Origin: a virus
Strand: one strand, 5' to 3'
Virus record (IMG/VR): IMGVR_UViG_3300045988_098562
Coordinates: 19,484-83,483 of that record
DNA: 64,000 nucleotides
The notes below the pieces were generated by a model that made no database searches, was not told the DNA's origin, and saw only the letters and a program-made list of their open reading frames with translations. Both the position numbers and the translations under genes were made by a program. Positions within the stretch are counted from its first letter, which is position 1. The number at the start of each line of letters is the position of its first letter. Positions 20,518-50,222 of this stretch are shown piece by piece.

Positions 20518-23500
20518 ATGACATCAACGTGTATTATTAAAAGAGATAATAAAAAGAAAGTTGTTTCTGTCTCTACCAGATCAGGGGACAGGTCTATGTT
20601 GTTTGATAAAATAGCATCTATTCCTCTTATGGAGAATAGGGAACGGGCTACTACTGTTTTTAAAACCGTATTTTCTAATAAGTTCTTAAAGGCTTTTGGT
20701 GACTGGAGAAGGAATGTACCTGTTAATAAACAGGCTTATAATAAGGTAAAATCCAACATCGGCCTTATTCCGGAATCCTATAGAGAAAGGGTGCTGGATA
20801 AGGCGTCTAAGATGAGTAACCCTGTTCTTGTGTCAAAATCAGATGCACCTTATGAAATCCAAGAATCGGGCTTTGGATTCTACAGCCAAGATCTGGGTGA
20901 TAATATTATGTTGGTGGATGCTATGGTTCCGTCAAGCATTTCCGTGCTGGAAGGACCTGGAATAGACGCCGGTCAGTATCTACAAGATGCTATATCTTCG
21001 GACTTCACTCCCGTATCTATGGTACAGGATAAGGATGCTAATTATATGGTTATAAAAGACGGTCTTAAGATATTTAGCCCAGAAGAGCTACCGGAGGCAG
21101 ATCCTAATCCTGTGGGTGTAACGTATCAGACCGGAGAGCCTCGTTTGTTTTTTATGAACGATCGTAGTCAATTATTTGAAGATTACGGAGAAGCTCTTCG
21201 TTCTGGTGGGAATGATATTAGAATAGGATTCTTATCCGGCACCGTTCAAGAATCTACCGTGGATGGCGTGGCAGACATTACATACAAGGCTGGAAAGTAT
21301 GTTCTTAATAATCCCAAGTCTTTTATACCGGTCATGACCGCGTCTGCTTCTACTTCTTTATCAACAAAAGGTGGTATAATTAACTACCTTATAAAGAAAG
21401 GTCTTTTGTCCGGATCTAAGATATTAGATCCTGAAACAAGAAGCTATTATCTTACAGGAGAAGGACATACAGGACAAATTAGACTTTTCAATTCATCCTT
21501 ATCCTACACCGAGCTCCGTAATCATTTTGGTTCCGATGTTTCCATGAACGACCAAGGTATGATAACCATAAGCTCGTTGGATAATAGTAAGGTAACTATG
21601 AGGCTCGCCACCGGAGGAACGGAAAGGGTTAGCAAAGAGCAGATAAAGAACGATCTTAAGTCAGGAAGATACAATGAATTGGATGCTAAGTACGATCATT
21701 TTGATGCGCTTGTAGTTTCATTCATATTAGAAGACAACGATCTTTATGCTGATACTAAAGCTAAGATCGTATCGGATTATAGCAGGCAGGAACGTGACCA
21801 ACGAAATTCTATTGTCGAGATACTGAAAACGCTTGGCGTTAGTGTCATAGGTATGACCGATTATATAGAGAAGTACCAAACCAAATACGGGCATGAACCT
21901 TCTGCTAAGGCATTGGCGGATATTGCCAATAACGTAATAGCAGTTGGTGAAGATGCTACTTTATCTGATTTAGTAGAAGAAACATCCCACTTCCTTGTAG
22001 AGGCATACAGAGATCAGAATGCTGTTGAGGCTGTTCTGCAAGATGTAGAAGGTACGGAAGAGTGGAACCAGTATGCAGGTCAGTATTATAATACATACGG
22101 TAAGGTATATGAAGGATCTGAGCTTGATAATGCCGTTAGGAGAGAAATTCTTGGAAAGATCCTCGCCAGGGAGATGCAGACCGGCACAGCACAGGCGCCG
22201 GTAGAGCCCACCTCCTTCCTGGGGCGCGTCCGGCAGCTTCTCTCTGGAATCGTAAGCTGGCTTAAATCAGCTTTATCAACCCAAAGACAAGATTTGAATA
22301 ACGTTATTAAAAGCATTCGTGATCTTGCCATTACTGACATAGATAAAGGATTTGACACTTCTCTGTTAAAGGATAATGACTTTACATTATACTCCCTTTC
22401 TTCTATGAACAAGAACAAGTTTCTTGAGTCTAAGATCAGATCGCTAAGAAAAACATTAAGAGACTTACGTCAGATAAGCTCTGATAGGGCTGTAACTACG
22501 TCTATGACCCTTGCTCAGCTTAAGACCATAGAAGATAAGATAAATAAAGTAGAGACCGAGATAGACAAGAATGAGATGGCGGCTGCCATGAACAGCATGA
22601 TCTCCACAGCCGAAGCTCAGGTCAGATACTTAAGTAATGTGGTGAACACCATCCTTCATGGTGATACCAAAGACGGTAAGCTTCATTTCAATACCAATGA
22701 TCGAAAGAATGTAGATATTATCAACAATCAGGTTCTTCCGATCATGAACGATCTCCGAGGATATATCCGTAACAGAAGTACCGAATTTGATGAACGTGAA
22801 AAGCAGGATTATACAAATAGGATCAATACCGTCATTGCCGACATCAATGGTATTCAGTCTGATATTAAATCAGTACAAGACCTTGATGAAAGTACGTTGC
22901 TTGATAAGTTAATGAACGAACTTCATGTGCCGGCAGATAAGGTAAAGAGAGTAAAAGAATTTTTCGACAAGGTTCAACACGATGTTTCTTGGATAAGTAG
23001 GTGGTTTGGTATATTAGAGCATTCTTCCAGTCCGTTCAATAACGCTCTTGGAGCTATGATTGCCAAAGACAATTACAATGCGATGGTGAATGCCCAGCCC
23101 GCCATATCCGACTTCCTGGCATATGCTAAAAAGCATGGTTTTAACAAATCTGAATTTGAAAAACTGCTTCAGAAAGTAGACGGCAAAACTTCTAATTACC
23201 TTCGTAGTGCTCTTGATATGGCTAAATACGATCGTAATAAGAAGCTGGCGCAGATGCGAGCGTTTGCGACTGCCATGAACATAGAGATATCAGAAGAAGA
23301 AATTGGTGATGTGGTTGACAATAACCGTAATTACGTATTTAAAAGAGAAGTAGTTGACAAGGATGGAAATACGGTTACTGAAAACGCTAAATTCAAACCA
23401 TCGTCTGATAGAGTTAATACCGATATTTTTACCATCGAGCAGGAAAAGATCTATACGGAGCAGATGGAAAAGTGGGATGCTGAAAATTCAGAATTGGAAT

Positions 23501-26500
23501 TTAGTGAAAGTTATGCCACAAGAATGGAATCCATATACAAAAAGGCTGAAGAAGAATTAGGACATCCGGTTTCTCAAACAACCAAAGAATACCTTAATGC
23601 CTTATCCCGGCAAAAACGGATATTGAGGCAGCCTTTTATTGATAGCGGTGGTAATTTTGATGAGGTTGCCTACTATAAGAGTAGTAACTACGAAGAAGAA
23701 GGACTGCTTCGTAAACAACGTAAGGAGGCAGCTTCGGAATACATATATGTAGGAACCAGGAGAGTGGAAAAAACCGGCGACCAACTTAAGATGGCCAAAG
23801 AAATACAAGCCATAAATGAAGTTTGGAGAAAAGAATCAAATAATGCCACTAATGCCGTATCAGAATCGTTTTTGCAAAAATTAAGAACGATTCAGAGCGA
23901 GTCTGGAGGAGAAGCTGCGCTGAAGACGCTTATGTTGGGGGGTCACCTGTCATTCAACGATCGGTTTTGGAATGACGTAGAATCGGAACAGTCGGCGCGT
24001 ACCGAATCAAATAACAAGGCTTCGTATCTTAAAATGGCGCATGATATCATTAGTTCTACGACAAGTGATAGAGATGCGACTGACGTGGACTCGATTGTAA
24101 AAGATATAGAAAAAAATAAGGCCATTATCAAGGAAATAATCGGAAACAATCGCGATGTGGCTGATATCGGAGAAATCAATGAAGCGACATTTACCTCATC
24201 TGAAAGAGATGCTTTTAGGGCCGCATCTGAAGCTATTGAAGCCGATTACGCTATTTTGATAGATTATGCTAAGATGGTGGGTCTTGAAGATATTGATAAG
24301 TACCTTACTAAAAGCAGTAAGGCTGAAAACGAAGTAAATCAGTCTTATTTAAATGCTCTTGCTGACTCTAAGGAAATTGAATGGCAGTTTGCACAGCGTC
24401 ATACTACTGCCAAAAAAGCCAAAAGGATTCAGGCTCTTAGAGATAAGTTATTCATGGCTCAAGATAACAGGTATATGTTTACCGTCTCTGAAACCAACTA
24501 CTTGTCAGAAAAATTGGGAATAGATAAAAAGCTAGATCGTAGAGATTTTAGGAATGCGGTTAGAGCCAAGATGTCTGACATATTTGGACACGATAACGGA
24601 GTAGCTGAAGTGAACGATATCGTTAATGAATTTGCCAGGAGCCAGGTCTTTTCGTACTATAAACGCATGGCGCCTACCGGATATGCGGCTATGATCGACA
24701 AAATCGGTCGAGGTGAGATAGATGTGGCGCAGATGGTTAAGGACGTACAAAACGGTACATCCACCCAAGATTATGGCATGGACATATCGTACCTGTCTTT
24801 CGATCCTGCAAGGGCATGGGTGGCTGAATCTGAAGCCGAAAATAGCGGCCGTAATCCTGATTATGTAAAAGATCATGGGTATGGTCATCGCATGCCTAAG
24901 AAAAGCCTGTATCGTGATGAATCGTATTTCAATGACTTTGGTATCAAGTATGATGCTGACGGTAATGAAGTTGCTACTAAAAACGTAGAGCAGTGGAATA
25001 TGATTCAAAAACTCAAGGAAATAAAAAGACAATCCCTTGATCTATACAAAGAGCAGAGTCCCAATTTGTATGCTATTCCACAGATATCAAAACAAGACAT
25101 AGAACGTATGGAAGGATTGGGTATTAACTTCAAAAATACGGTTCGTAATTTCGTATCAGATCTGTGCCTGGACAGAGTAGACGATTCTCTATATGGTAAG
25201 ACCAGGCAAGGGGAAGTATATGATCCGGAAGACAGACTTAGGTCTATACCTAAATACTACATATATGAGTTGGAGAACCAAGATGATGTATCTCACGATT
25301 TTGGCTACTCTTATTCGATGCTTATGATGCAGTCATCGTTATACAACGAAAAGCAGAAATCTATAGAGCTTGCCCAAGGACTGGAGCAGATGTTGCTGAA
25401 TAAGCAATTTGAAGGCGGTAAGAAAGCTGAAGCGACTCAAGCATATCAGATGTTTAGAGACTTCTTTAACGATCATTATTATGGCATTAGGATGAACACC
25501 AAAAAACTGACGGTAAACATCGGTGGATACACAGTAGACCTTACCAGGATAATGATGGCCGTTGAAAGATTTATGTCGGTCATGAACTTGGCACTGTCTC
25601 CGTTTGTGGCAGCTACCGGCGCCCTTACCGGCCATATCAACCTCATCATGGAATCAGCCGTAGGACAGTATATAAGCAAAGACTCCCTTAAATACGCATC
25701 GGCTGAGTTTTCACGCCTTGCGCCATCTTGTATAGCAGAAACCGGAGACATAGATAGGAAAAGCAAATTATATGTCATAGGTGAGAGAATGGGTATTTTC
25801 AACATACGAAACAGAATGTATGGTGCCGGATACAATAGAGTGGCCAGGACCTTAATGCGTTCGCCTATGTATGCTTTTATGGAAATCCTGAACTACCCTC
25901 TTGATCCGCAGGTTATGATTGCTACTATGGACAATGTTCGTTATTACAAAGGCCGGTTCTACACGTTCCAAGATTTCAAGATGGAAAAAGAACGTAATAA
26001 AGAACAGAGTACCATAAAAAGAGAATGGAATGCATTAAAAGATCGTACTTTATGGAGTATGGTAGACGTCGTGGATGGGAAGGTGGTTGTAAAGCCAGGA
26101 TCGGGTGTTACTGCCGAGGAAGTTGAAACCCAGATGGCTATAACCAGAAATCAAGTTCGTAGCTTGTCGCAGATATGTAACGGATCTTTGAATGAAGAAA
26201 ACCGAACTGCCGCATCGCGCAACTGGATAGCCAGGTTCATGACCGCCCACCGAGGATGGTTGGTGCTGGCGGCTCAACGTCTGTGGAAAAGGCGTGGCTT
26301 CAATTTCCAAACAATGCAAGAAGAGGAGGGACTGTCAATTACGTTAAAGAATATGATAGCCAAAACATTTAGCCTGGCTTCCGAGTCTGGTATGAAAAAC
26401 ATCATAGATGCCTGGAATGAAAATAAAGACAATATGAATGAGGTAGAAAAAACCAATCTCAAACGTCTCAGTGTCTATGCCGGCACGTTCCTTATCATGC

Positions 26501-26931
26501 AAGCCGTATCCATGCTTCTTGCCGGATGGCGTGATGATGATGAAAACGAAGAAAGTTGGCTTACTCAATTTGGATCCTATGTCGGATTCAGAACCATAAA
26601 CGAAATAGCTTCACAGATGCCGTTTATTATGGAGCTTAACGTGGTAGATATCATTAACGATCCGTTTGTTATGGGGCGAAAACTGAAGGATCTTACCGAT
26701 CTTAGGAATTATTCACTTGATAAAGTAACATCCGGCACATACAAAGGAGAGTCTAAGTTATTTAGGCAACTCGCCAAACAGACGTTTATCAAACAATGGT
26801 ATAATATCAAGACGCCGGAAGACGTAGCGCGCGCTTATAATTGGTGGCAGCAGACGAACAACAAGTCAATGATGTTCTTCATCGGCGCCACTCCTGATTC
26901 GGAAGGTGATGAGGATACAAGCTACAAATAG
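20518..26931 (+). CDS. giant 2137-aa protein, probable internal virion/ejection protein with C-terminal transmembrane segments
   Basis: 6.4 kb stop-free ORF; hydrophobic stretches near C-terminus (FLIMQAVSMLLAGW); no lytic transglycosylase or RNAP DxDGD motif found by eye. Confidence 0.65.
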   Translation: MTSTCIIKRDNKKKVVSVSTRSGDRSMLFDKIASIPLMENRERATTVFKTVFSNKFLKAFGDWRRNVPVNKQAYNKVKSNIGLIPESYRERVLDKASKMSNPVLVSKSDAPYEIQESGFGFYSQDLGDNIMLVDAMVPSSISVLEGPGIDAGQYLQDAISSDFTPVSMVQDKDANYMVIKDGLKIFSPEELPEADPNPVGVTYQTGEPRLFFMNDRSQLFEDYGEALRSGGNDIRIGFLSGTVQESTVDGVADITYKAGKYVLNNPKSFIPVMTASASTSLSTKGGIINYLIKKGLLSGSKILDPETRSYYLTGEGHTGQIRLFNSSLSYTELRNHFGSDVSMNDQGMITISSLDNSKVTMRLATGGTERVSKEQIKNDLKSGRYNELDAKYDHFDALVVSFILEDNDLYADTKAKIVSDYSRQERDQRNSIVEILKTLGVSVIGMTDYIEKYQTKYGHEPSAKALADIANNVIAVGEDATLSDLVEETSHFLVEAYRDQNAVEAVLQDVEGTEEWNQYAGQYYNTYGKVYEGSELDNAVRREILGKILAREMQTGTAQAPVEPTSFLGRVRQLLSGIVSWLKSALSTQRQDLNNVIKSIRDLAITDIDKGFDTSLLKDNDFTLYSLSSMNKNKFLESKIRSLRKTLRDLRQISSDRAVTTSMTLAQLKTIEDKINKVETEIDKNEMAAAMNSMISTAEAQVRYLSNVVNTILHGDTKDGKLHFNTNDRKNVDIINNQVLPIMNDLRGYIRNRSTEFDEREKQDYTNRINTVIADINGIQSDIKSVQDLDESTLLDKLMNELHVPADKVKRVKEFFDKVQHDVSWISRWFGILEHSSSPFNNALGAMIAKDNYNAMVNAQPAISDFLAYAKKHGFNKSEFEKLLQKVDGKTSNYLRSALDMAKYDRNKKLAQMRAFATAMNIEISEEEIGDVVDNNRNYVFKREVVDKDGNTVTENAKFKPSSDRVNTDIFTIEQEKIYTEQMEKWDAENSELEFSESYATRMESIYKKAEEELGHPVSQTTKEYLNALSRQKRILRQPFIDSGGNFDEVAYYKSSNYEEEGLLRKQRKEAASEYIYVGTRRVEKTGDQLKMAKEIQAINEVWRKESNNATNAVSESFLQKLRTIQSESGGEAALKTLMLGGHLSFNDRFWNDVESEQSARTESNNKASYLKMAHDIISSTTSDRDATDVDSIVKDIEKNKAIIKEIIGNNRDVADIGEINEATFTSSERDAFRAASEAIEADYAILIDYAKMVGLEDIDKYLTKSSKAENEVNQSYLNALADSKEIEWQFAQRHTTAKKAKRIQALRDKLFMAQDNRYMFTVSETNYLSEKLGIDKKLDRRDFRNAVRAKMSDIFGHDNGVAEVNDIVNEFARSQVFSYYKRMAPTGYAAMIDKIGRGEIDVAQMVKDVQNGTSTQDYGMDISYLSFDPARAWVAESEAENSGRNPDYVKDHGYGHRMPKKSLYRDESYFNDFGIKYDADGNEVATKNVEQWNMIQKLKEIKRQSLDLYKEQSPNLYAIPQISKQDIERMEGLGINFKNTVRNFVSDLCLDRVDDSLYGKTRQGEVYDPEDRLRSIPKYYIYELENQDDVSHDFGYSYSMLMMQSSLYNEKQKSIELAQGLEQMLLNKQFEGGKKAEATQAYQMFRDFFNDHYYGIRMNTKKLTVNIGGYTVDLTRIMMAVERFMSVMNLALSPFVAATGALTGHINLIMESAVGQYISKDSLKYASAEFSRLAPSCIAETGDIDRKSKLYVIGERMGIFNIRNRMYGAGYNRVARTLMRSPMYAFMEILNYPLDPQVMIATMDNVRYYKGRFYTFQDFKMEKERNKEQSTIKREWNALKDRTLWSMVDVVDGKVVVKPGSGVTAEEVETQMAITRNQVRSLSQICNGSLNEENRTAASRNWIARFMTAHRGWLVLAAQRLWKRRGFNFQTMQEEEGLSITLKNMIAKTFSLASESGMKNIIDAWNENKDNMNEVEKTNLKRLSVYAGTFLIMQAVSMLLAGWRDDDENEESWLTQFGSYVGFRTINEIASQMPFIMELNVVDIINDPFVMGRKLKDLTDLRNYSLDKVTSGTYKGESKLFRQLAKQTFIKQWYNIKTPEDVARAYNWWQQTNNKSMMFFIGATPDSEGDEDTSYK

Positions 26932-37991: not shown

Positions 37992-38484
37992 ATCCCATAT
38001 TCTATTAAATATATTTAAAGCTATTCGTATGTTTTAATACATCCCCTCGGAGACCTTTCGGTCTCCTTGGTAGATGTAAATCCCGTTAGGGATAAGTCAG
38101 GATTTCTCCTGTAAGTACCCATCGCCAATGTTATTTAAGGTTTTGAATAAGCAACACTGTTCCTGAATACCAGAACTGTTTAATCACTTACCTTAGAGCT
38201 ACAGACTTGGGCAAACATCCGTAGGTAACTATCTATTCTTAAATAACGTAGCCTTTGTTTCAAGGCTTAGGCTAATAACCCGATCTCTTAAAGAGATGTA
38301 TTAAACTTTTATAATAGAATTATATTGGTTTAATACTATTTGGGGTTATAACACTGATCATAATGCTTGGTCAGTTCTTCTGGTTCTAAATCTTGTCCAA
38401 AATCCATGTTAAAAATATCGTAATTAGTAAAGCACTGTTCCTGCCGGCAGGAAATCTATGAATGCTGCTTTTATTTCTTCAATT

Positions 38485-38508
38485 AGGCCCAAGTGTAACC
38501 TTGGGCCA
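38485..38508 (-). terminator. putative terminator hairpin GGCCCAAG-loop-CTTGGGCC directly after flotillin stop
   Basis: 8-bp perfect stem 6 nt after stop; trailing sequence A/T-rich but not a clean U-run. Confidence 0.35.
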
Positions 38509-38514
38509 TTGTAT

Positions 38515-40215
38515 TTATTTTTTGTCATCTCCTTTTAGCTTCTTTAAAGTATCTGCAATCGGAAGCTGATCAATGACTCCCAATGCCGGAGCGACGGTCT
38601 TGACAACATTGTTAAGGAAATTACCGGTACTGTTCTGACCGCCGTCAAATACTGTGATATTTCCGAGGTTAATGTGCTCAAATGCCTTAACCTGTTCTCC
38701 GGCAATTTCTTTCCACTGATTAACCATCTTGTGCTGGATGGCGATCTGAGGATTGGATTCTGCTGCTTCCACCATGGCCTTAAATCCGTCGGCTTCTGCC
38801 ATCAACGATTTTTTCTTACCTTCGGCTTCTGCCTCCAGCTTCATCTGAATAGCTTTTGCCTCCGCCTCAGCTTTTGCCAAATGTGCTGCTGCTTCTGCCT
38901 CAGCCCGGCGTTTGATCTTCTCTGCCTCAGCATCAGCTTGCAAGATAGCCTCTTCCTTCTGGGTTTCAGCCGGCACAATCTTTTCAGCCTTAAGCGCAGC
39001 CTGAACTTTCTTAGCCTTAGCTTCTTCCACTTCTTTGTCGGCAAGCTCTTTTGCTGTTTTTACAGCCGCTTCCGATTTAACTTTTTCTTCTCCGGCCTTC
39101 TTCTCTGATTGAGCTTTGATGATCTGTAGTTCTGATACTGATACAGCAACCTCCTTCTGGGCATTGTTGTATCCTATAGACGCATTTTTCTCAGCCTCAG
39201 CCTTCTTAATCTGAGCTTCAGAGTCTTGTATTGCTATAGCTGCTTCCTTGTCAGCTTCAGCCTTATTCTTTCCGACTTCTTCCATTCTTTCAGCCTCGGC
39301 TTTATTTACTTCAAGTTCTGCCTTAGATCTTACGATCGCCGATTCCTTGTCGGTTAAAGTTTTTGCGATAACCGCAGCCCTGTCTCTATCTGCTTGAGCT
39401 ACACCGATCTGTTTCTCTTTATCGGTTAAAGCTAAAGCTATTTCTTTTTCTTTCTTCGTTTCAGCTACTATCGTTTCCTTTTCTTTTTCAGTACAAGCAA
39501 TTTGAATCTCTTGCTCTTTTTTGGTATTAGCCACAGCCGTTTCTTTCTCCTTCTGCTGTACAGCAATCTTAATAGCACCCAGCTTCTCCTGTTCTTCGAT
39601 ATTAGCCTGTGCCTCGTTCAGAGCCCTACTTTCAGCCTCCTTACCAAGGTTCATAATATAACCGGCTTCGTCTCTGATGTCACTGATGTTGATGTTCAGG
39701 AGGTAAAGACCTAACTTGTTAAGCTCGTTATCAATGTTCTTTCTTGCCTTATCCAAAAACTCATCCCTGTCAGAATTAAGTTTTTCGATTGTCATTTCAG
39801 CAATAATCAAACGCATCTGACCGTAAACGATGTCCGTAATAAGATTTTCAGTAGATTCGGTATCCATCCCCAAAAGTCTTTCTGCCGCATTTTGCATGAT
39901 TTCGGGATTTGTACTGATAGCTACTGTAATGGTCGTAGGTACATCTACTCTAATATTCTGAGATGACAAAGCACCTGTAAGCTTGCAATCTATTTGCATA
40001 GGCTCCATTGACAAAACATCATAGCTTTGAATAATAGGCAAGACAAATGCCGCTCCACCATGATATAATTTCGCCGATTTCTTTTCCCCACCTGTCTTAC
40101 CGTAAACGACCAAGACCTGATTAGGTTTACATCTACGATACCTTGATAAGACTCCGATGATTGTCAAAATAATCACTACAGCTAAGATAGCTGACACGTA
40201 CATGATTGTTGTCAT
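38515..40215 (-). CDS. floT: flotillin (SPFH/band-7 domain protein, FloT/YqiK-like) with EA-repeat coiled coil
   Basis: N-terminal TM (VSAILAVVIILTIIGVL), SPFH core, long Ala/Glu/Lys-rich EA-repeat region, C-terminal ITVFDGG segment; 566 aa typical of bacterial flotillins. Confidence 0.85.
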   Translation of the reverse strand: MTTIMYVSAILAVVIILTIIGVLSRYRRCKPNQVLVVYGKTGGEKKSAKLYHGGAAFVLPIIQSYDVLSMEPMQIDCKLTGALSSQNIRVDVPTTITVAISTNPEIMQNAAERLLGMDTESTENLITDIVYGQMRLIIAEMTIEKLNSDRDEFLDKARKNIDNELNKLGLYLLNINISDIRDEAGYIMNLGKEAESRALNEAQANIEEQEKLGAIKIAVQQKEKETAVANTKKEQEIQIACTEKEKETIVAETKKEKEIALALTDKEKQIGVAQADRDRAAVIAKTLTDKESAIVRSKAELEVNKAEAERMEEVGKNKAEADKEAAIAIQDSEAQIKKAEAEKNASIGYNNAQKEVAVSVSELQIIKAQSEKKAGEEKVKSEAAVKTAKELADKEVEEAKAKKVQAALKAEKIVPAETQKEEAILQADAEAEKIKRRAEAEAAAHLAKAEAEAKAIQMKLEAEAEGKKKSLMAEADGFKAMVEAAESNPQIAIQHKMVNQWKEIAGEQVKAFEHINLGNITVFDGGQNSTGNFLNNVVKTVAPALGVIDQLPIADTLKKLKGDDKK

Positions 40216-40246
40216 AACTTTTAAAATTTAATTGTTGATGAAAAAA

Positions 40247-40741
40247 TTAGATACTTAATTCTCCTTCTTCATATTTTATATTCACCTTGTCACCGTTTTT
40301 GTAAGTTTTTCCAGACAAGCATCTTACTCTCATTTGCTCCTGTCTTCCATTTTTCGAAATATTTACCATATAATGATTCTTCCCTGATCTAAACACTATC
40401 TCCACCTCTCGGCCATTTAAATCTTCCGGACATTCGTACACCATTTCTTGCTTTAACTTAAGAAGTAACTTATATACGTAAAACAAAACGATAAAGAAAA
40501 GCGATCCTATCACAACCCCTACTAAATGGGAACCCGAAAAGTAGGTAGTCCAGCTATATCCAAGAATAAAATGTGTTATGCCCTTGAATGATATGATGTC
40601 CGACAAAGACATGCTTAAATCAGAAGCACTGTCAATGTCAATATCCGTATCCAGATCAGATCCTAATATCGACAACAAAAACTGTATAACAAAAGCAAAT
40701 GACGCTATTAAAGCCATGCATAAAATTATGTCACTTCCCAT
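40247..40741 (-). CDS. nfeD: NfeD-like membrane protein (short form, YuaF-like) partner of flotillin
   Basis: Multiple N-terminal TM helices then C-terminal beta-rich OB-like domain (GREVEIVFRSG...GDKVNIKYEEGELSI); located directly upstream of flotillin as in nfeD-floT operons. Confidence 0.7.
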   Translation of the reverse strand: MGSDIILCMALIASFAFVIQFLLSILGSDLDTDIDIDSASDLSMSLSDIISFKGITHFILGYSWTTYFSGSHLVGVVIGSLFFIVLFYVYKLLLKLKQEMVYECPEDLNGREVEIVFRSGKNHYMVNISKNGRQEQMRVRCLSGKTYKNGDKVNIKYEEGELSI

Positions 40742-40982
40742 ATCCTTCTGTTATTATTTTGTAAACAAGATCAGTCATATCTTTGATGGTCTCCATATCA
40801 TAATCAATAATAACAATATTGAATTTTTGTTCCACCATCACATCAAGCTCAATCCGATCAACAGAATCTAATCCAAGTTCTTTAAACGACACATCTTCTT
40901 CATGAACTATATCTATTTCCGAATTAAGAAACTGAGTAATAATTATATCCTCTATTATCTTTCTGATTCTTACTTTTTCCAT
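40731..40982 (-). CDS. acpP: acyl carrier protein
   Basis: 83 aa acidic protein with LGLDSVDRIELDVMVEQKF (phosphopantetheine-attachment DS[LV]D motif, helix II) and C-terminal DLVYKI; overlaps NfeD start by 11 nt. Confidence 0.7.
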   Translation of the reverse strand: MEKVRIRKIIEDIIITQFLNSEIDIVHEEDVSFKELGLDSVDRIELDVMVEQKFNIVIIDYDMETIKDMTDLVYKIITEGYGK

Positions 40983-41683
40983 TGCTTTCTAATTTTGTTA
41001 AATAAGTATGTTTTTATGTTTTTCAATCTCTCTTTGTCTGTTTCAGAACTTCCGGTAAATAAATAATCCGGATTGCCTTTAGCCGGCGGCGTAGGCAATT
41101 TAGATACGGCAAACAACCAATCCATTTCCTTATTCTTCTTAGGCTCCAAATAAGGCTCGGTAGCGATCTTAAATTTTTCAGCTATTAAGTCAAAGAGCTT
41201 TGAGTTTTTAAGGTTCATATGGACTGAAAAAGCCTGAGAAGGCGGTTTCCATATGAAGTTACATAAGCTCATTGTGCAATCTCCTGACTCTGCTATATAA
41301 GATTCCGTTACTTGAAGTATGACCTCTTTCTTAAATGAAGTATTACCCATAAACCAACACAATCTGGATTCCGCTTCTTTTCTGCTGACACCTATGTCTT
41401 TTGAATATGATTCGTACATTCCTATCATAATCTTCAACGTTTCCAGAACCTCGTCTGTCATTTCCGGTGTCTCTATATAATTCACAAAAGACGTTCCTTT
41501 GTTGGTCAATCTCATCACGCCTGATTTTAATTTCTCAACCAGGCCAAGCTCTATATATCTACCAGCATCTTCTTCCTGCATGGCTTCGATCATAACCGAA
41601 TCCTTCTGTCTTATGGCAAGAAGATTAGCGAGATCATTAGGAGTCATGTCTGATGCTGTAAGTTGTCTGAAATTGATGTACAT
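40970..41683 (-). CDS. hypothetical protein (237 aa) co-operonic with ACP
   Basis: Overlaps ACP start by 13 nt; no clear motif (SRKEAES resembles PPTase W/FSxKEA but the upstream GxD motif is missing). Confidence 0.55.
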   Translation of the reverse strand: MYINFRQLTASDMTPNDLANLLAIRQKDSVMIEAMQEEDAGRYIELGLVEKLKSGVMRLTNKGTSFVNYIETPEMTDEVLETLKIMIGMYESYSKDIGVSRKEAESRLCWFMGNTSFKKEVILQVTESYIAESGDCTMSLCNFIWKPPSQAFSVHMNLKNSKLFDLIAEKFKIATEPYLEPKKNKEMDWLFAVSKLPTPPAKGNPDYLFTGSSETDKERLKNIKTYLFNKIRKQWKK

Positions 41684-41685
41684 TC

Positions 41686-41892
41686 CTAATCAGCTTTAAT
41701 GAAAATAACATCTCTATTATCCTCCCTCTCCGCGTGACTACACGGACCTGCAATCACATGCACTGCCCCGCATGTAAAGTAATTGAATATACATCCTTCA
41801 CATCCTGCATTTGGCGCCGTAGGTTCCACACATTTTAATCTCACAAGTCCGGCATCAAACACTTCTCCTACTTTAAATTCCTTCTTTTCCAT
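41686..41892 (-). CDS. small Cys-rich protein (68 aa; C-x8-C-x2-C-x7-C-x9-C)
   Basis: First gene of the five-gene operon; five Cys, possible metal site. Confidence 0.5.
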   Translation of the reverse strand: MEKKEFKVGEVFDAGLVRLKCVEPTAPNAGCEGCIFNYFTCGAVHVIAGPCSHAEREDNRDVIFIKAD

Positions 41893-49424: not shown

Positions 49425-50222
49425 TTAGTTAGATACAAATATACAAGTTTTACTAAGATACCCTTCTGTCATCTCTATAAAGTTCACACAATCTAATTTG
49501 CTTAACTTGTAAATCAATGCCGGATTGTGTACTATGGCTATAATTTGTGTTTGTGGTTTATGGAATGACAATACATTATAAATTTGCATTATGTTGTCAA
49601 TGTCAAGATTCCTATCTGGCTCATCCATGAGAACCGTGTATTCAAAACTGCTTTCTGTTAATGTTATGCGGTTTCTTTCATAATACTTCAACAGGTTATC
49701 AATTCTTTTAATCCAAAACGCATTTGATTTTTTCTTGTATTCTACAAGATCTTGTATTGGAAACGTATAATCCTTTTGACCGAACATTAAATTGAAAAGT
49801 GATTCCAATGATAACACCACTTTCTCTCCATAAGATCTTCGAATATTATTCACATACAAATCTAAGTTGCTGATGTTTTTCAATACGCTATCTCGATTCA
49901 TCTCCGCCGATGGCAATAAACGGAATACCTTTCCTGCATAATCGGATAATATGTCAATCCCATCAAGAACCTTGTCATCATCATCAAATATAGGTGGAAA
50001 ATCCAGTGCCTCGATCGGTATTTCAGAGCACATGGACTTCTCGCATAACGCATACATTGATATGATGTTAAGCAAGGTTGATTTTCCACTACCGTTTTTC
50101 CCTATAATCACATTCACTCCTGGCTTGAAAATAAATTCTCTGCCATTTTCAAATGCTTCTATATCCGAAACATATTCAAATGGAGTTTTTGTATTGTCTT
50201 TTATTTTTACTTTATATATCAT
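49425..50222 (-). CDS. ABC/AAA-type ATPase (Walker A GKNGSGKST, Walker B-like VLMDEPDRNLD)
   Basis: P-loop and acidic Walker B with downstream D-loop-like LD; stand-alone 265-aa ATPase. Confidence 0.7.
   Translation of the reverse strand: MIYKVKIKDNTKTPFEYVSDIEAFENGREFIFKPGVNVIIGKNGSGKSTLLNIISMYALCEKSMCSEIPIEALDFPPIFDDDDKVLDGIDILSDYAGKVFRLLPSAEMNRDSVLKNISNLDLYVNNIRRSYGEKVVLSLESLFNLMFGQKDYTFPIQDLVEYKKKSNAFWIKRIDNLLKYYERNRITLTESSFEYTVLMDEPDRNLDIDNIMQIYNVLSFHKPQTQIIAIVHNPALIYKLSKLDCVNFIEMTEGYLSKTCIFVSN

What the first reader, a model, noticed from the sequence alone, without database searches (positions are those of the whole stretch)
40731..40982. Stand-alone acyl carrier protein with no synthase partner nearby
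The 83-aa acidic protein carries the canonical ACP helix-II motif LGLDSVDRIELDVMVEQKF, so the conserved serine for phosphopantetheine is present. No FabD/FabH/KS, AcpS or PPTase gene is recognisable in this 64 kb. The gene is translationally coupled between a 237-aa unknown protein and NfeD. A viral ACP would need host AcpS for activation. It could divert acyl groups to lipid remodelling (it sits next to flotillin), or act as a decoy or inhibitor of host fatty-acid or lipid A synthesis.
Basis: partly seen in the sequence, partly recalled or inferred. Interest (0 to 1): 0.65.

Follow-up and report, generated by a model that had tools for sequence, protein, structure and literature searches.

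The report
Phage acyl-carrier-like protein, serine optional
A gut crAss-like phage carries a small acyl-carrier-type protein that is real and already annotated in a public relative, but population data show that its cofactor-attachment serine is dispensable, so it more likely works by docking onto other proteins than by carrying fatty acids.

Summary
The 83-aa ORF at 40731-40982 (-) is real. It passes Pfam PP-binding, and its Ser40 aligns with the phosphopantetheine serine of solved ACPs. No FAS, PKS, PPTase or acyltransferase family was found in the 64 kb. The gene is not new: the window is about 96% identical to GenBank phage csAssE-Sib, a 151-kb crAss-like human-gut phage, where it is annotated "acyl carrier protein".

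Comparative data change the interpretation.
- The NfeD-like and flotillin genes downstream are a two-gene operon captured from Bacteroidales hosts, and those host operons never include an ACP.
- The ACP-like gene occupies a hypervariable slot just after a conserved 237-aa winged-helix protein.
- Sister phages carry very different alleles in that slot: Ser, Ser->Asp, Ser->Tyr/Phe, or no ACP.
- Inside the window's own clade, S40F/P/Y alleles, one nonsense allele and several in-frame deletions circulate on large contigs.
- ACP pN/pS is 0.40 (0.92 between two haplotypes), against 0.005-0.085 for seven of eight neighbouring genes.
- The AcpP docking residues stay conserved while the serine does not.

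Best reading, at confidence 0.4: a dispensable accessory ACP mimic or adaptor. A true acyl-carrier role tied to flotillin remains possible. Interest is moderate; this is a new member of a known kind.

The parts
40731..40982 (-). ACP-fold gene, 83 aa; this is the Ser-bearing allele
   Evidence: It is a complete ORF. PF00550 scores 26.5 bits against a gathering score of 20.8. phrog_5934 matches at 2e-8. The best solved ACP matches at 1e-5.
40863..40865 (-). Ser40 codon (TCT), the putative 4'-phosphopantetheine attachment site
   Evidence: It aligns with the DSL serine of P. falciparum ACP 3gzl and with E. coli AcpP Ser36. It is replaced by F, P or Y in natural alleles of the same clade.
40970..41683 (-). 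Conserved 237-aa protein: an N-terminal winged helix plus an all-alpha C-terminal domain of unknown fold. Its stop lies 13 nt inside the ACP ORF.
40247..40741 (-). NfeD-type membrane protein, 164 aa: N-terminal transmembrane helices plus a C-terminal OB-like domain. Its start lies 11 nt inside the ACP ORF.
38515..40215 (-). Flotillin, 566 aa, derived from the host
   Evidence: PF01145 Band_7 matches at 7.6e-26 and PF15975 Flot at 3.5e-9. It is 62-67% identical to chromosomal flotillins of Bacteroides, Parabacteroides, Prevotella and Phocaeicola.
38416..40941 (-). Swappable cassette: the ACP body (from codon 15 onward), NfeD, flotillin and a 3' hairpin
   Evidence: In blastn against sister phages L092, L097 and L098, identity is about 95% down to 40942. 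There is then no homology until 38415. About 290 nt encoding a Ser-less ACP-like body takes its place.
38486..38507 (.). GC-rich hairpin GGCCCAAG-N6-CTTGGGCC, 8 nt after the flotillin stop and inside the cassette
   Evidence: Its function was not tested.

Best explanation
The gene encodes a dispensable accessory ACP-fold protein of an epsilon-type crAss-like phage that infects Bacteroidales.

**Where it sits.** It occupies a hypervariable slot immediately after a conserved winged-helix protein of the replication module, and overlaps that protein's stop codon. This window carries the Ser-bearing allele. That allele travels as one recombination block with an NfeD-flotillin operon captured from the host.

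**How it most likely works.** It probably acts through its ACP docking surface: helix II and the acidic residues equivalent to AcpP D35, D38, E47 and D56. On this reading it is a mimic or competitor of host AcpP, or an adaptor for an ACP-binding client protein, during early or middle infection. It is probably not the shuttle of a phage-encoded acyl pathway.

**The serine.** Ser40 can probably be modified by host AcpS, but the modification is not needed for the phage to propagate.

**Shown:** fold-family membership, serine alignment, absence of partner enzymes, host origin of NfeD-flotillin, the allelic series, weak constraint and dispensability.

**Inferred:** the docking or mimic mechanism and the identity of the client.
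For: **The serine is not conserved, but the docking residues are**
- At the same locus, sister phages carry alleles reading DLGFDDLD (Asp). This motif is unchanged across L086, L094-L096 and L183, and these alleles score 41 bits on PF00550. Other alleles read FDYLD, FDYFD or FDFFK.
- Within the window's clade, S40F (P0006, P0011), S40P (P0042 on 10 contigs up to 145 kb, P0080, P0083) and S40Y (L071) arise on different haplotypes.
- The AcpP docking equivalents D39, E51 and D60 are invariant across Ser and Ser-less alleles. D42 and F54 are nearly invariant.

**Constraint is weak**
- Within the clade, ACP pN/pS is 0.40. It is 0.005-0.085 for DnaB, p200, p237, NfeD, flotillin, p115 and PDDEXK; the 68-aa ORF, at 0.32 from only 11 sequences, is the exception.
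- Between the window and the L066 haplotype, ACP dN/dS is 0.92 (16 nonsynonymous, 4 synonymous changes). The six neighbours that could be compared give 0.00-0.08.
- The ACP is only 35% identical in L090, where its neighbours are 63-84% identical.

**The gene is dispensable**
- One R43stop allele exists.
- In-frame deletion alleles fuse ACP to NfeD (P0102) or ACP to the flotillin C-terminus (P0166).

**No pathway is present**
- No ACP-using or ACP-loading enzyme was found in the window or in the annotation of the complete relative.

**Precedents**
- AcpP acts as a non-lipid accessory factor of MukB (PMC8602292).
Against: - Ser40 is still present in 108 of 113 distinct 83-aa proteins of the clade. 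It is also kept in the L090 lineage despite 65% sequence divergence. Some selection for the serine in flotillin-bearing phages is therefore plausible.
- In the four lineages sampled, the Ser-bearing alleles are exactly the ones linked to NfeD-flotillin. This hints at a lipid or membrane role.
- High pN/pS can equally mean relaxed constraint on a gene of little use.
- No client protein has been identified.
Confidence: 0.4

Rival explanations
1. It is a genuine holo-ACP auxiliary metabolic gene. Host AcpS would add phosphopantetheine to Ser40. Host FAS or acyltransferases would load and use the protein. It would work with the co-inherited NfeD-flotillin pair to remodel membrane lipid domains for phage replication, assembly or exclusion.
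For: - The DSxD motif is canonical and the protein passes PF00550.
- D39, D42, E45 and E51 match the AcpP helix II residues.
- The Ser-bearing ACP body, NfeD and flotillin form one swapped block, and the ACP stop overlaps the NfeD start.
- Both flotillin-bearing lineages (the window clade and L090) keep the serine. Both flotillin-less lineages with an ACP-like gene have lost it.
Against: - Host NfeD-flotillin operons have no ACP within 4 kb in 80 of 80 loci.
- S40F, S40P and S40Y alleles occur on large contigs that still carry the cassette.
- pN/pS is 0.40, against 0.045-0.064 for NfeD and flotillin.
- Scores are far below the AcpP equivalog cut-offs: 28-29 bits against about 70.
- The Ser-flotillin association rests on only four lineages that are not independent.
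Confidence: 0.25
2. It is a ligand or subunit of the upstream 237-aa winged-helix protein. The analogy is acyl-ACP as the co-repressor of the MarR-type regulator FabT, or an accessory chain of a replication organiser.
For: - The ACP-like gene always starts 13 nt before the stop of the 237-aa gene, in all four lineages that have it.
- FabT binds DNA only with acyl-ACP, and the auxiliary AcpB serves it (PMC6509188).
- Stand-alone ACPs sit next to DnaB or other replication genes in unrelated phage contigs.
Against: - Homologues of the 237-aa protein occur without any ACP-like gene in L184, L182, L088, L085 and L185.
- The 237-aa gene region is about 95% identical at the DNA level between the window and L092 and the proteins differ at only a handful of positions. 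Their ACP-like proteins are only 37% identical. There is therefore no co-variation.
- The FabT match is one of about 60 generic winged-helix hits.
Confidence: 0.15
3. It is a fast-evolving anti-defence or host-takeover protein in an arms race, housed in a hot spot for accessory genes.
For: - It sits in a hypervariable slot flanked by conserved genes, with at least four very different alleles or unrelated inserts.
- dN/dS is 0.92 between haplotypes.
- In the Tyr lineage, all 6 differences are nonsynonymous, and 5 of them fall within 17 nt at the former serine motif.
- Anti-defence genes lie nearby: a Tad2-like ORF in the window and Gad2 in sister phages.
Against: - There is no PADLOC match.
- I know of no defence system that uses or senses an ACP.
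- Most substitutions are conservative (I/M, V/I, R/K, D/E). Regional pN/pS exceeds 1 only in residues 17-34, where there are few sites.
- The Tyr-lineage sample is only three sequences.
Confidence: 0.1
4. It is a passenger gene in decay with no present function.
For: pN/pS is 0.40-0.92. A nonsense allele, serine-loss alleles and deletion fusions all exist.
Against: - The ORF is full-length and ungapped in 80 of 80 IMG/VR loci, 79 of them without a stop.
- An ACP-like ORF of 79-88 aa is kept in four lineages that share only 26-37% identity.
- The fold core and docking residues are conserved. The Asp motif is unchanged across alleles (L086/L094-L096 versus L183) that differ at roughly half of their positions.
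Confidence: 0.1

Closest known systems
Stand-alone phage-encoded acyl carrier proteins (PHROG 5934), for example ORF32 of Erythrobacter phage vB_EliS-R6L and ORF117 of Vibrio phage R16F
   Same: They are small ACP-family proteins in phage genomes that lack fatty-acid synthase genes. They are annotated as auxiliary metabolic genes, with the stated caveat that 'their function remains unclear' (PMC5463345; PMC10152775). The window protein matches phrog_5934 at 2e-8.
   Different: No other record among 50,697 phage genomes matches this protein by tblastn at E<=1e-3, apart from csAssE-Sib. Here there is also an allelic series with and without the serine, and physical linkage to a host-derived NfeD-flotillin operon.
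Bacterial AcpP (TIGR00517 / PRK00982)
   Same: It has the same family, length and acidity. It has the DSxD motif with the serine in register, and the helix II acidic residues are conserved.
   Different: It scores only 28-29 bits against equivalog cut-offs of about 70. It is 28% identical to E. coli AcpP. It has no fab gene context, evolves almost neutrally, and tolerates loss of the serine.
Auxiliary ACP AcpB with the MarR-type repressor FabT (Enterococcus, Streptococcus)
   Same: A second, non-essential ACP works as the ligand of a winged-helix regulator rather than in bulk synthesis (PMC6509188). Here an ACP-like gene directly follows a gene for a MarR-like winged-helix protein.
   Different: The 237-aa protein has an extra helical domain of unknown fold and sits in a replication module. 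It occurs without the ACP in several lineages. No binding has been shown. FabT needs an acyl chain, which Ser-less alleles cannot carry.
ACP as a non-lipid accessory subunit or inhibitor: AcpP with MukB, apo-ACP inhibition of PlsB, and the Ser-less ACP fold of mitoribosomal protein mL50 (PF10501)
   Same: These are precedents for ACP-fold proteins acting by protein-protein contact (PMC8602292; PMC3896788). The Asp allele of L096 scores above the PF10501 gathering score: 26.8 bits against 25.1.
   Different: These are cellular systems. No equivalent client is known in Bacteroidales or in this phage.
Bacterial NfeD-flotillin operons (YuaF-FloT, YqiJ-YqiK type)
   Same: The two genes downstream of the ACP have the same order, sizes and folds. 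They are 62-67% (flotillin) and about 40% (NfeD-like) identical to the Bacteroidales chromosomal pair.
   Different: Here the operon is carried by a phage and is fused head-to-tail with an ACP gene, which the bacterial operons lack.

Membership tests
PP-binding / acyl carrier protein family (PF00550) | Sequence match above the curated Pfam gathering score | tested here: met
   The score is 26.5 bits against a cut-off of 20.8, E 7.7e-6, covering residues 22-71.
PP-binding / acyl carrier protein family (PF00550) | Serine of the D-S-(L/V/I) motif at the start of helix II, in register with the phosphopantetheine serine of solved ACPs | tested here: met
   Ser40 aligns with the DSL serine of 3gzl and 2fq0 and with E. 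coli Ser36. It is not met in sister alleles (Asp, Tyr, Phe) or in six or more alleles of the same clade.
PP-binding / acyl carrier protein family (PF00550) | Four-helix bundle fold | not tested
   No structure was predicted for this protein. The fold is inferred from alignments to solved ACPs over residues 14-73.
PP-binding / acyl carrier protein family (PF00550) | Covalent 4'-phosphopantetheine on the serine in vivo | not testable with these tools
   This needs mass spectrometry or an in vitro AcpS assay.
Housekeeping AcpP (NCBIfam TIGR00517, NF002148, NF002151) | Score above the equivalog cut-off | tested here: not met
   Scores are 28-29 bits against cut-offs of 70-92.
Housekeeping AcpP or dedicated carrier of a pathway | Cognate synthase, transferase or PPTase genes in the same genome | tested here: not met
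   No such Pfam family was found in 90 window ORFs at E<=1e-3; the 2137-aa ORF was not scanned. None is named in the 206 features of OR575929.
PHROG 5934 (phage acyl carrier protein) | Profile match | tested here: met
   E 2.1e-8, 35.2 bits, residues 9-75.
DUF1493 (the name NCBI gives some close homologues) | Pfam match to the DUF1493 family | tested here: not met
   At E<=1 only PF00550 and PF23297 are listed for the window protein. The name appears only as a source label.
NfeD (the neighbour at 40247-40741) | N-terminal membrane helices plus a C-terminal OB-fold domain, encoded upstream of an SPFH or flotillin gene | tested here: met
Flotillin / SPFH (the neighbour at 38515-40215) | Band_7 domain plus a Flot C-terminal domain | tested here: met
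   PF01145 matches at 7.6e-26 and PF15975 at 3.5e-9. NCBIfam FloT scores 145 bits, below its 700-bit equivalog cut-off.
FabT-type acyl-ACP-dependent MarR regulators (for the 237-aa neighbour) | MarR-family dimeric winged helix that binds acyl-ACP | tested here: inconclusive

The most novel reading that the evidence does not exclude
Small ACP-fold proteins may be a recurrent accessory factor of phage replication modules that works without phosphopantetheine, as a mimic of host AcpP that captures or blocks an ACP-dependent host protein. In flotillin-bearing crAss-like phages, the Ser-bearing allele would additionally couple this activity to a captured NfeD-flotillin membrane scaffold. Supporting hints: the ACP-like gene lies next to DnaB, methyltransferase or nucleotide-metabolism genes in unrelated phages, and it is serine-optional here.
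Probability: 0.15. Interest if true: 0.7.

Novelty: new member of a known kind. Interest (0 to 1): 0.38.

Why it matters
Stand-alone ACP genes are scattered through phage genomes. They are routinely labelled as auxiliary metabolic genes for lipid synthesis, without evidence. This case comes from a very abundant human-gut crAss-like phage, seen on more than a thousand metagenomic contigs. It offers a natural experiment: the attachment serine is repeatedly lost while the docking surface is kept, which argues against the default 'fatty-acid carrier' annotation. It also identifies a host-derived NfeD-flotillin operon carried by the phage, and that points to Bacteroidales as the host. If the mimic idea holds, it would define a new way for phages to interfere with host ACP-dependent processes. 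If it fails, the gene is an ordinary dispensable accessory gene.

Tried and rejected

**Is the ACP part of the host flotillin operon?** Rejected. 0 of 80 Bacteroidales loci have an ACP-like ORF within 4 kb at E<=1, using four different ACP queries.

**Is the ACP an obligate partner of the 237-aa protein?** Weakened. Five lineages have the 237-aa gene without an ACP, and there is no co-variation.

**Are the clustered changes at the former serine motif in L098 caused by a diversity-generating retroelement?** Unlikely. The changes are A>T, C>T, G>A and C>A, not adenine-specific. The only DGR annotated in the relative lies elsewhere, beside a tail-fibre gene.

**Could NfeD be identified by sequence?** No. 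It failed with Pfam, with a single sequence against PDB, and with a 52-sequence profile against PDB. It was resolved only by fold.

**Technical dead ends**
- The afdb50 fold library was unavailable.
- The five-sequence flotillin alignment was too divergent for the genome scan.
- Literature searches for csAssE-Sib and for crAss-like plus flotillin found nothing.
- Cluster look-ups of the nearest non-phage ACPs returned no organism names.
- PADLOC gave no significant hit.

Full report
**1. What is in the sequence**

The minus-strand ORF at 40731-40982 encodes an 83-aa acidic protein with pI 4.35. It passes Pfam PP-binding at 26.5 bits against a gathering score of 20.8. It matches the PHROG family annotated as phage acyl carrier protein at 2e-8. 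It also matches 113 solved ACP chains at E<=1, the best being P. falciparum ACP at 1e-5.

In those alignments, and in a MAFFT alignment with E. coli AcpP, Ser40 (codon 40863-40865) is in register with the phosphopantetheine serine. The score is far below the NCBIfam AcpP equivalog cut-offs: 28-29 bits against about 70. So this is an ACP-family protein but not an AcpP orthologue.

The upstream 237-aa ORF ends 13 nt inside the ACP ORF. The ACP ORF ends 11 nt inside the next ORF.

**2. Where the window comes from**

The region is about 96% identical to GenBank OR575929, 'phage csAssE-Sib'. That is a 151-kb phage from human gut whose annotation uses crAss-type structural terms such as ring and muzzle proteins. 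The gene is already annotated there as 'acyl carrier protein'. JGI uses the same name, while some NCBI metagenome records call it DUF1493.

Nearly 950 near-identical proteins exist in gut metagenomes, on contigs of 140-157 kb. In a library clustered at 50% identity the family is isolated. It has only two full-length clusters, and the next hits, at E about 1e-9 and 29-36% identity, are multi-domain synthases with several ACP-like stretches. Among 50,697 phage records, only csAssE-Sib carries it.

**3. No partner enzyme**

Pfam scans of 90 ORFs of the window gave no FAS, PKS, PPTase, AMP-binding or acyltransferase family at E<=1e-3. The 2137-aa ORF at 20518-26931 was not scanned. None is named among the 206 annotated features of the complete relative.

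I considered whether the 237-aa neighbour might be an Sfp-type PPTase, since the sizes are similar. It is not. Its AF2 model (pLDDT 88) is an N-terminal MarR-like winged helix plus an all-alpha domain with no structural match. The only significant viral relative is an uncharacterised protein of the crAss-like Cellulophaga phage phi14:2.

**4. The downstream genes are a captured host operon**

The flotillin (PF01145 plus PF15975) is 62-67% identical to chromosomal flotillins of Bacteroides, Parabacteroides, Prevotella and Phocaeicola.

None of the 80 bacterial loci has an ACP-like ORF within 4 kb, and none has a homologue of the 237-aa protein. The ACP therefore did not arrive with the flotillin operon.

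**5. The conserved neighbour is the 237-aa gene, and the slot is hypervariable**

I followed homologues of the 237-aa protein into other phage contigs. The results were:

| Lineage | Identity of the 237-aa protein to the window | What follows it |
|---|---|---|
| L090 | 76% | ACP with Ser (LELDSLD), then NfeD and flotillin; this ACP is only 35% identical to the window ACP, while its neighbours are 63-84% identical |
| L092, L097, L098 | gene region about 95% identical at DNA level | 84-aa ACP-like protein reading FDYLD, FDYFD or FDFFK, with no serine and no NfeD or flotillin |
| L086, L087, L094-L096, L183 | 57-59% | ACP-like protein reading GFDDLD (Ser to Asp), which scores 41 bits on PF00550, better than the window protein; then a C5 DNA methylase and sometimes two radical-SAM genes |
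| L182, L088, L184, L185, L085 | 37-62% | unrelated small ORFs, or the PDDEXK nuclease gene directly |

At the DNA level, the window and the L092-type phages are about 95% identical down to 40942, which is 41 nt into the ACP gene. Homology is then lost until 38415. So the window segment 38416-40941, comprising the ACP body, NfeD, flotillin and a 3' hairpin, is one swappable cassette. In the sister phage it is replaced by about 290 nt encoding a Ser-less ACP-like body.

**6. Constraint on the gene**

Among 113 distinct 83-aa proteins of the window's clade, Ser40 is kept in 108. S40F (P0006, P0011) and S40P (P0042 on 10 contigs up to 145 kb, P0080, P0083) occur on different haplotypes. D39N is carried by a cluster of 518 sequences.

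Among 80 IMG/VR loci there is one S40Y allele and one R43stop allele.

Within-clade pN/pS values were:

| Gene | pN/pS |
|---|---|
| ACP | 0.40 |
| DnaB | 0.054 |
| 200-aa protein | 0.005 |
| 68-aa ORF (11 sequences only) | 0.32 |
| 237-aa protein | 0.050 |
| NfeD | 0.064 |
| Flotillin | 0.045 |
| 115-aa protein | 0.085 |
| PDDEXK nuclease | 0.059 |

Between the window and the L066 haplotype, the ACP has 16 nonsynonymous and 4 synonymous differences, giving dN/dS 0.92. The six neighbours that could be compared give 0.00-0.08.

In the Asp lineage the ratio is 0.60, against 0.19 for the 237-aa gene. In the Tyr lineage all six differences are nonsynonymous, and five fall within 17 nt at the former serine motif. 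That sample is only three sequences.

Natural in-frame deletion alleles fuse ACP to NfeD, ACP to the flotillin C-terminus, and NfeD to flotillin. One locus lacks flotillin altogether. The cassette is therefore dispensable in nature.

The gene is not simply decaying, however. It is full-length in 80 of 80 loci. An ACP-like ORF of 79-88 aa persists in four lineages that share only 26-37% identity. The residues equivalent to AcpP D35, E47 and D56 are invariant, and those equivalent to D38 and F50 nearly so. At the serine position, the nine phage alleles aligned read S, S, Y, S, D, D, D, Y, F.

**7. Interpretation**

The pattern is a kept docking surface, an optional attachment site, no cognate enzymes, weak constraint, and a hot-spot location in an early or replication module. 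This fits an accessory ACP mimic or adaptor that acts by protein contact. I hold this at confidence 0.4.

There are precedents. [quoted passage not shown] AcpP is an accessory factor of the SMC-like MukB (PMC8602292).

Rival explanations:
- **True carrier tied to NfeD-flotillin (0.25).** It is supported by co-inheritance and by the Ser-flotillin association in four lineages. It is opposed by the serine-loss alleles and by the ACP-free host operons.
- **Ligand of the winged-helix protein, by analogy with FabT and acyl-ACP (0.15).** The analogy comes from PMC6509188. It is opposed by lineages that lack the ACP and by the absence of co-variation.
- **Anti-defence protein in an arms race (0.1).**
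- **Functionless decay (0.1).**

**8. Comparison with what is known, and verdict**

Stand-alone phage ACPs are a known and unexplained kind. One paper says their 'function remains unclear' (PMC5463345). This gene is already annotated, so the finding is a new member of a known kind.

The carrier-centred interpretation is only partly supported.

What goes beyond the existing annotation is the evidence for a serine-optional allelic series, the cassette structure, and the host origin of NfeD-flotillin. Interest is moderate, at 0.38.

Noticed in passing
window 38515-40741 (-); loci L102-L181: The phage NfeD-flotillin pair is a host-derived two-gene operon. The flotillin is 62-67% identical to chromosomal copies in Bacteroides, Parabacteroides, Prevotella and Phocaeicola. 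This points to Bacteroidales as the host range.
   Followed up: yes
P0102, P0166, P0246, P0267, P0273, P0284, P0285; L070: Many natural in-frame deletion alleles fuse ACP to NfeD, ACP to the flotillin C-terminus, or NfeD to flotillin. Locus L070 lacks flotillin entirely. The cassette is frequently broken in wild populations.
   Followed up: partly
L187:2575-5800; L093:6678-10488; Erythrobacter phage R6L ORF31-34 (PMC5463345): In unrelated phage contigs, a stand-alone ACP sits in replication or nucleotide-metabolism modules rather than lipid modules. In L187 it starts 2 nt after the DnaB stop and lies near a methyltransferase. In L093 it lies among thymidylate synthase and dCMP deaminase genes.
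   Followed up: no
window 40970-41683 (-): The 237-aa protein family has a winged helix plus a helical domain of unknown fold. It is conserved across epsilon crAss-like phages and has a structural relative in Cellulophaga phage phi14:2. It has no Pfam family. It lies between DnaB and the PDDEXK nuclease, so it may be a replication organiser.
   Followed up: partly
window 49425-50219 (-): A 264-aa protein has an SMC_N / AAA_23 / AAA_21 P-loop head. It might be an ACP client by analogy with MukB and AcpP; this is pure speculation.
   Followed up: no
window 9759-31931 (ORF set of alignment A6): One ORF matches the Tad2-like Thoeris anti-defence domain at 2.9e-12. Others match WDGH at 7e-37, AntA, and GIY-YIG/T5orf172. 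The exact ORFs were not located, except DUF7841 at 16576-16866.
   Followed up: no
L086:8941-11946, L087:8941-10813, L183:5950-8956: In sister phages the same slot holds a C5 DNA methylase, which carries an intein in L087, and two radical-SAM genes after the Ser-less ACP-like gene. A Gad2 anti-Gabija domain gene lies upstream.
   Followed up: no
window 38486-38507: A GC-rich 8-bp-stem hairpin lies 8 nt after the flotillin stop codon, inside the swapped cassette, with no T-run after it. It may be a terminator or a recombination boundary.
   Followed up: no
L098:4100-4140 versus L092 and L097: Five of six nucleotide differences in the Tyr-type ACP-like gene cluster within 17 nt at the former serine motif, and all are nonsynonymous. 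The adjacent gene has pS 0.145. This could be positive selection, a conversion patch or an assembly artefact.
   Followed up: partly
window 41686-41892 (-): This 68-aa Cys-rich ORF also shows a high pN/pS of 0.32, and only 16 of 80 loci gave a full ungapped match. It may be another fast-evolving small gene in the block.
   Followed up: no
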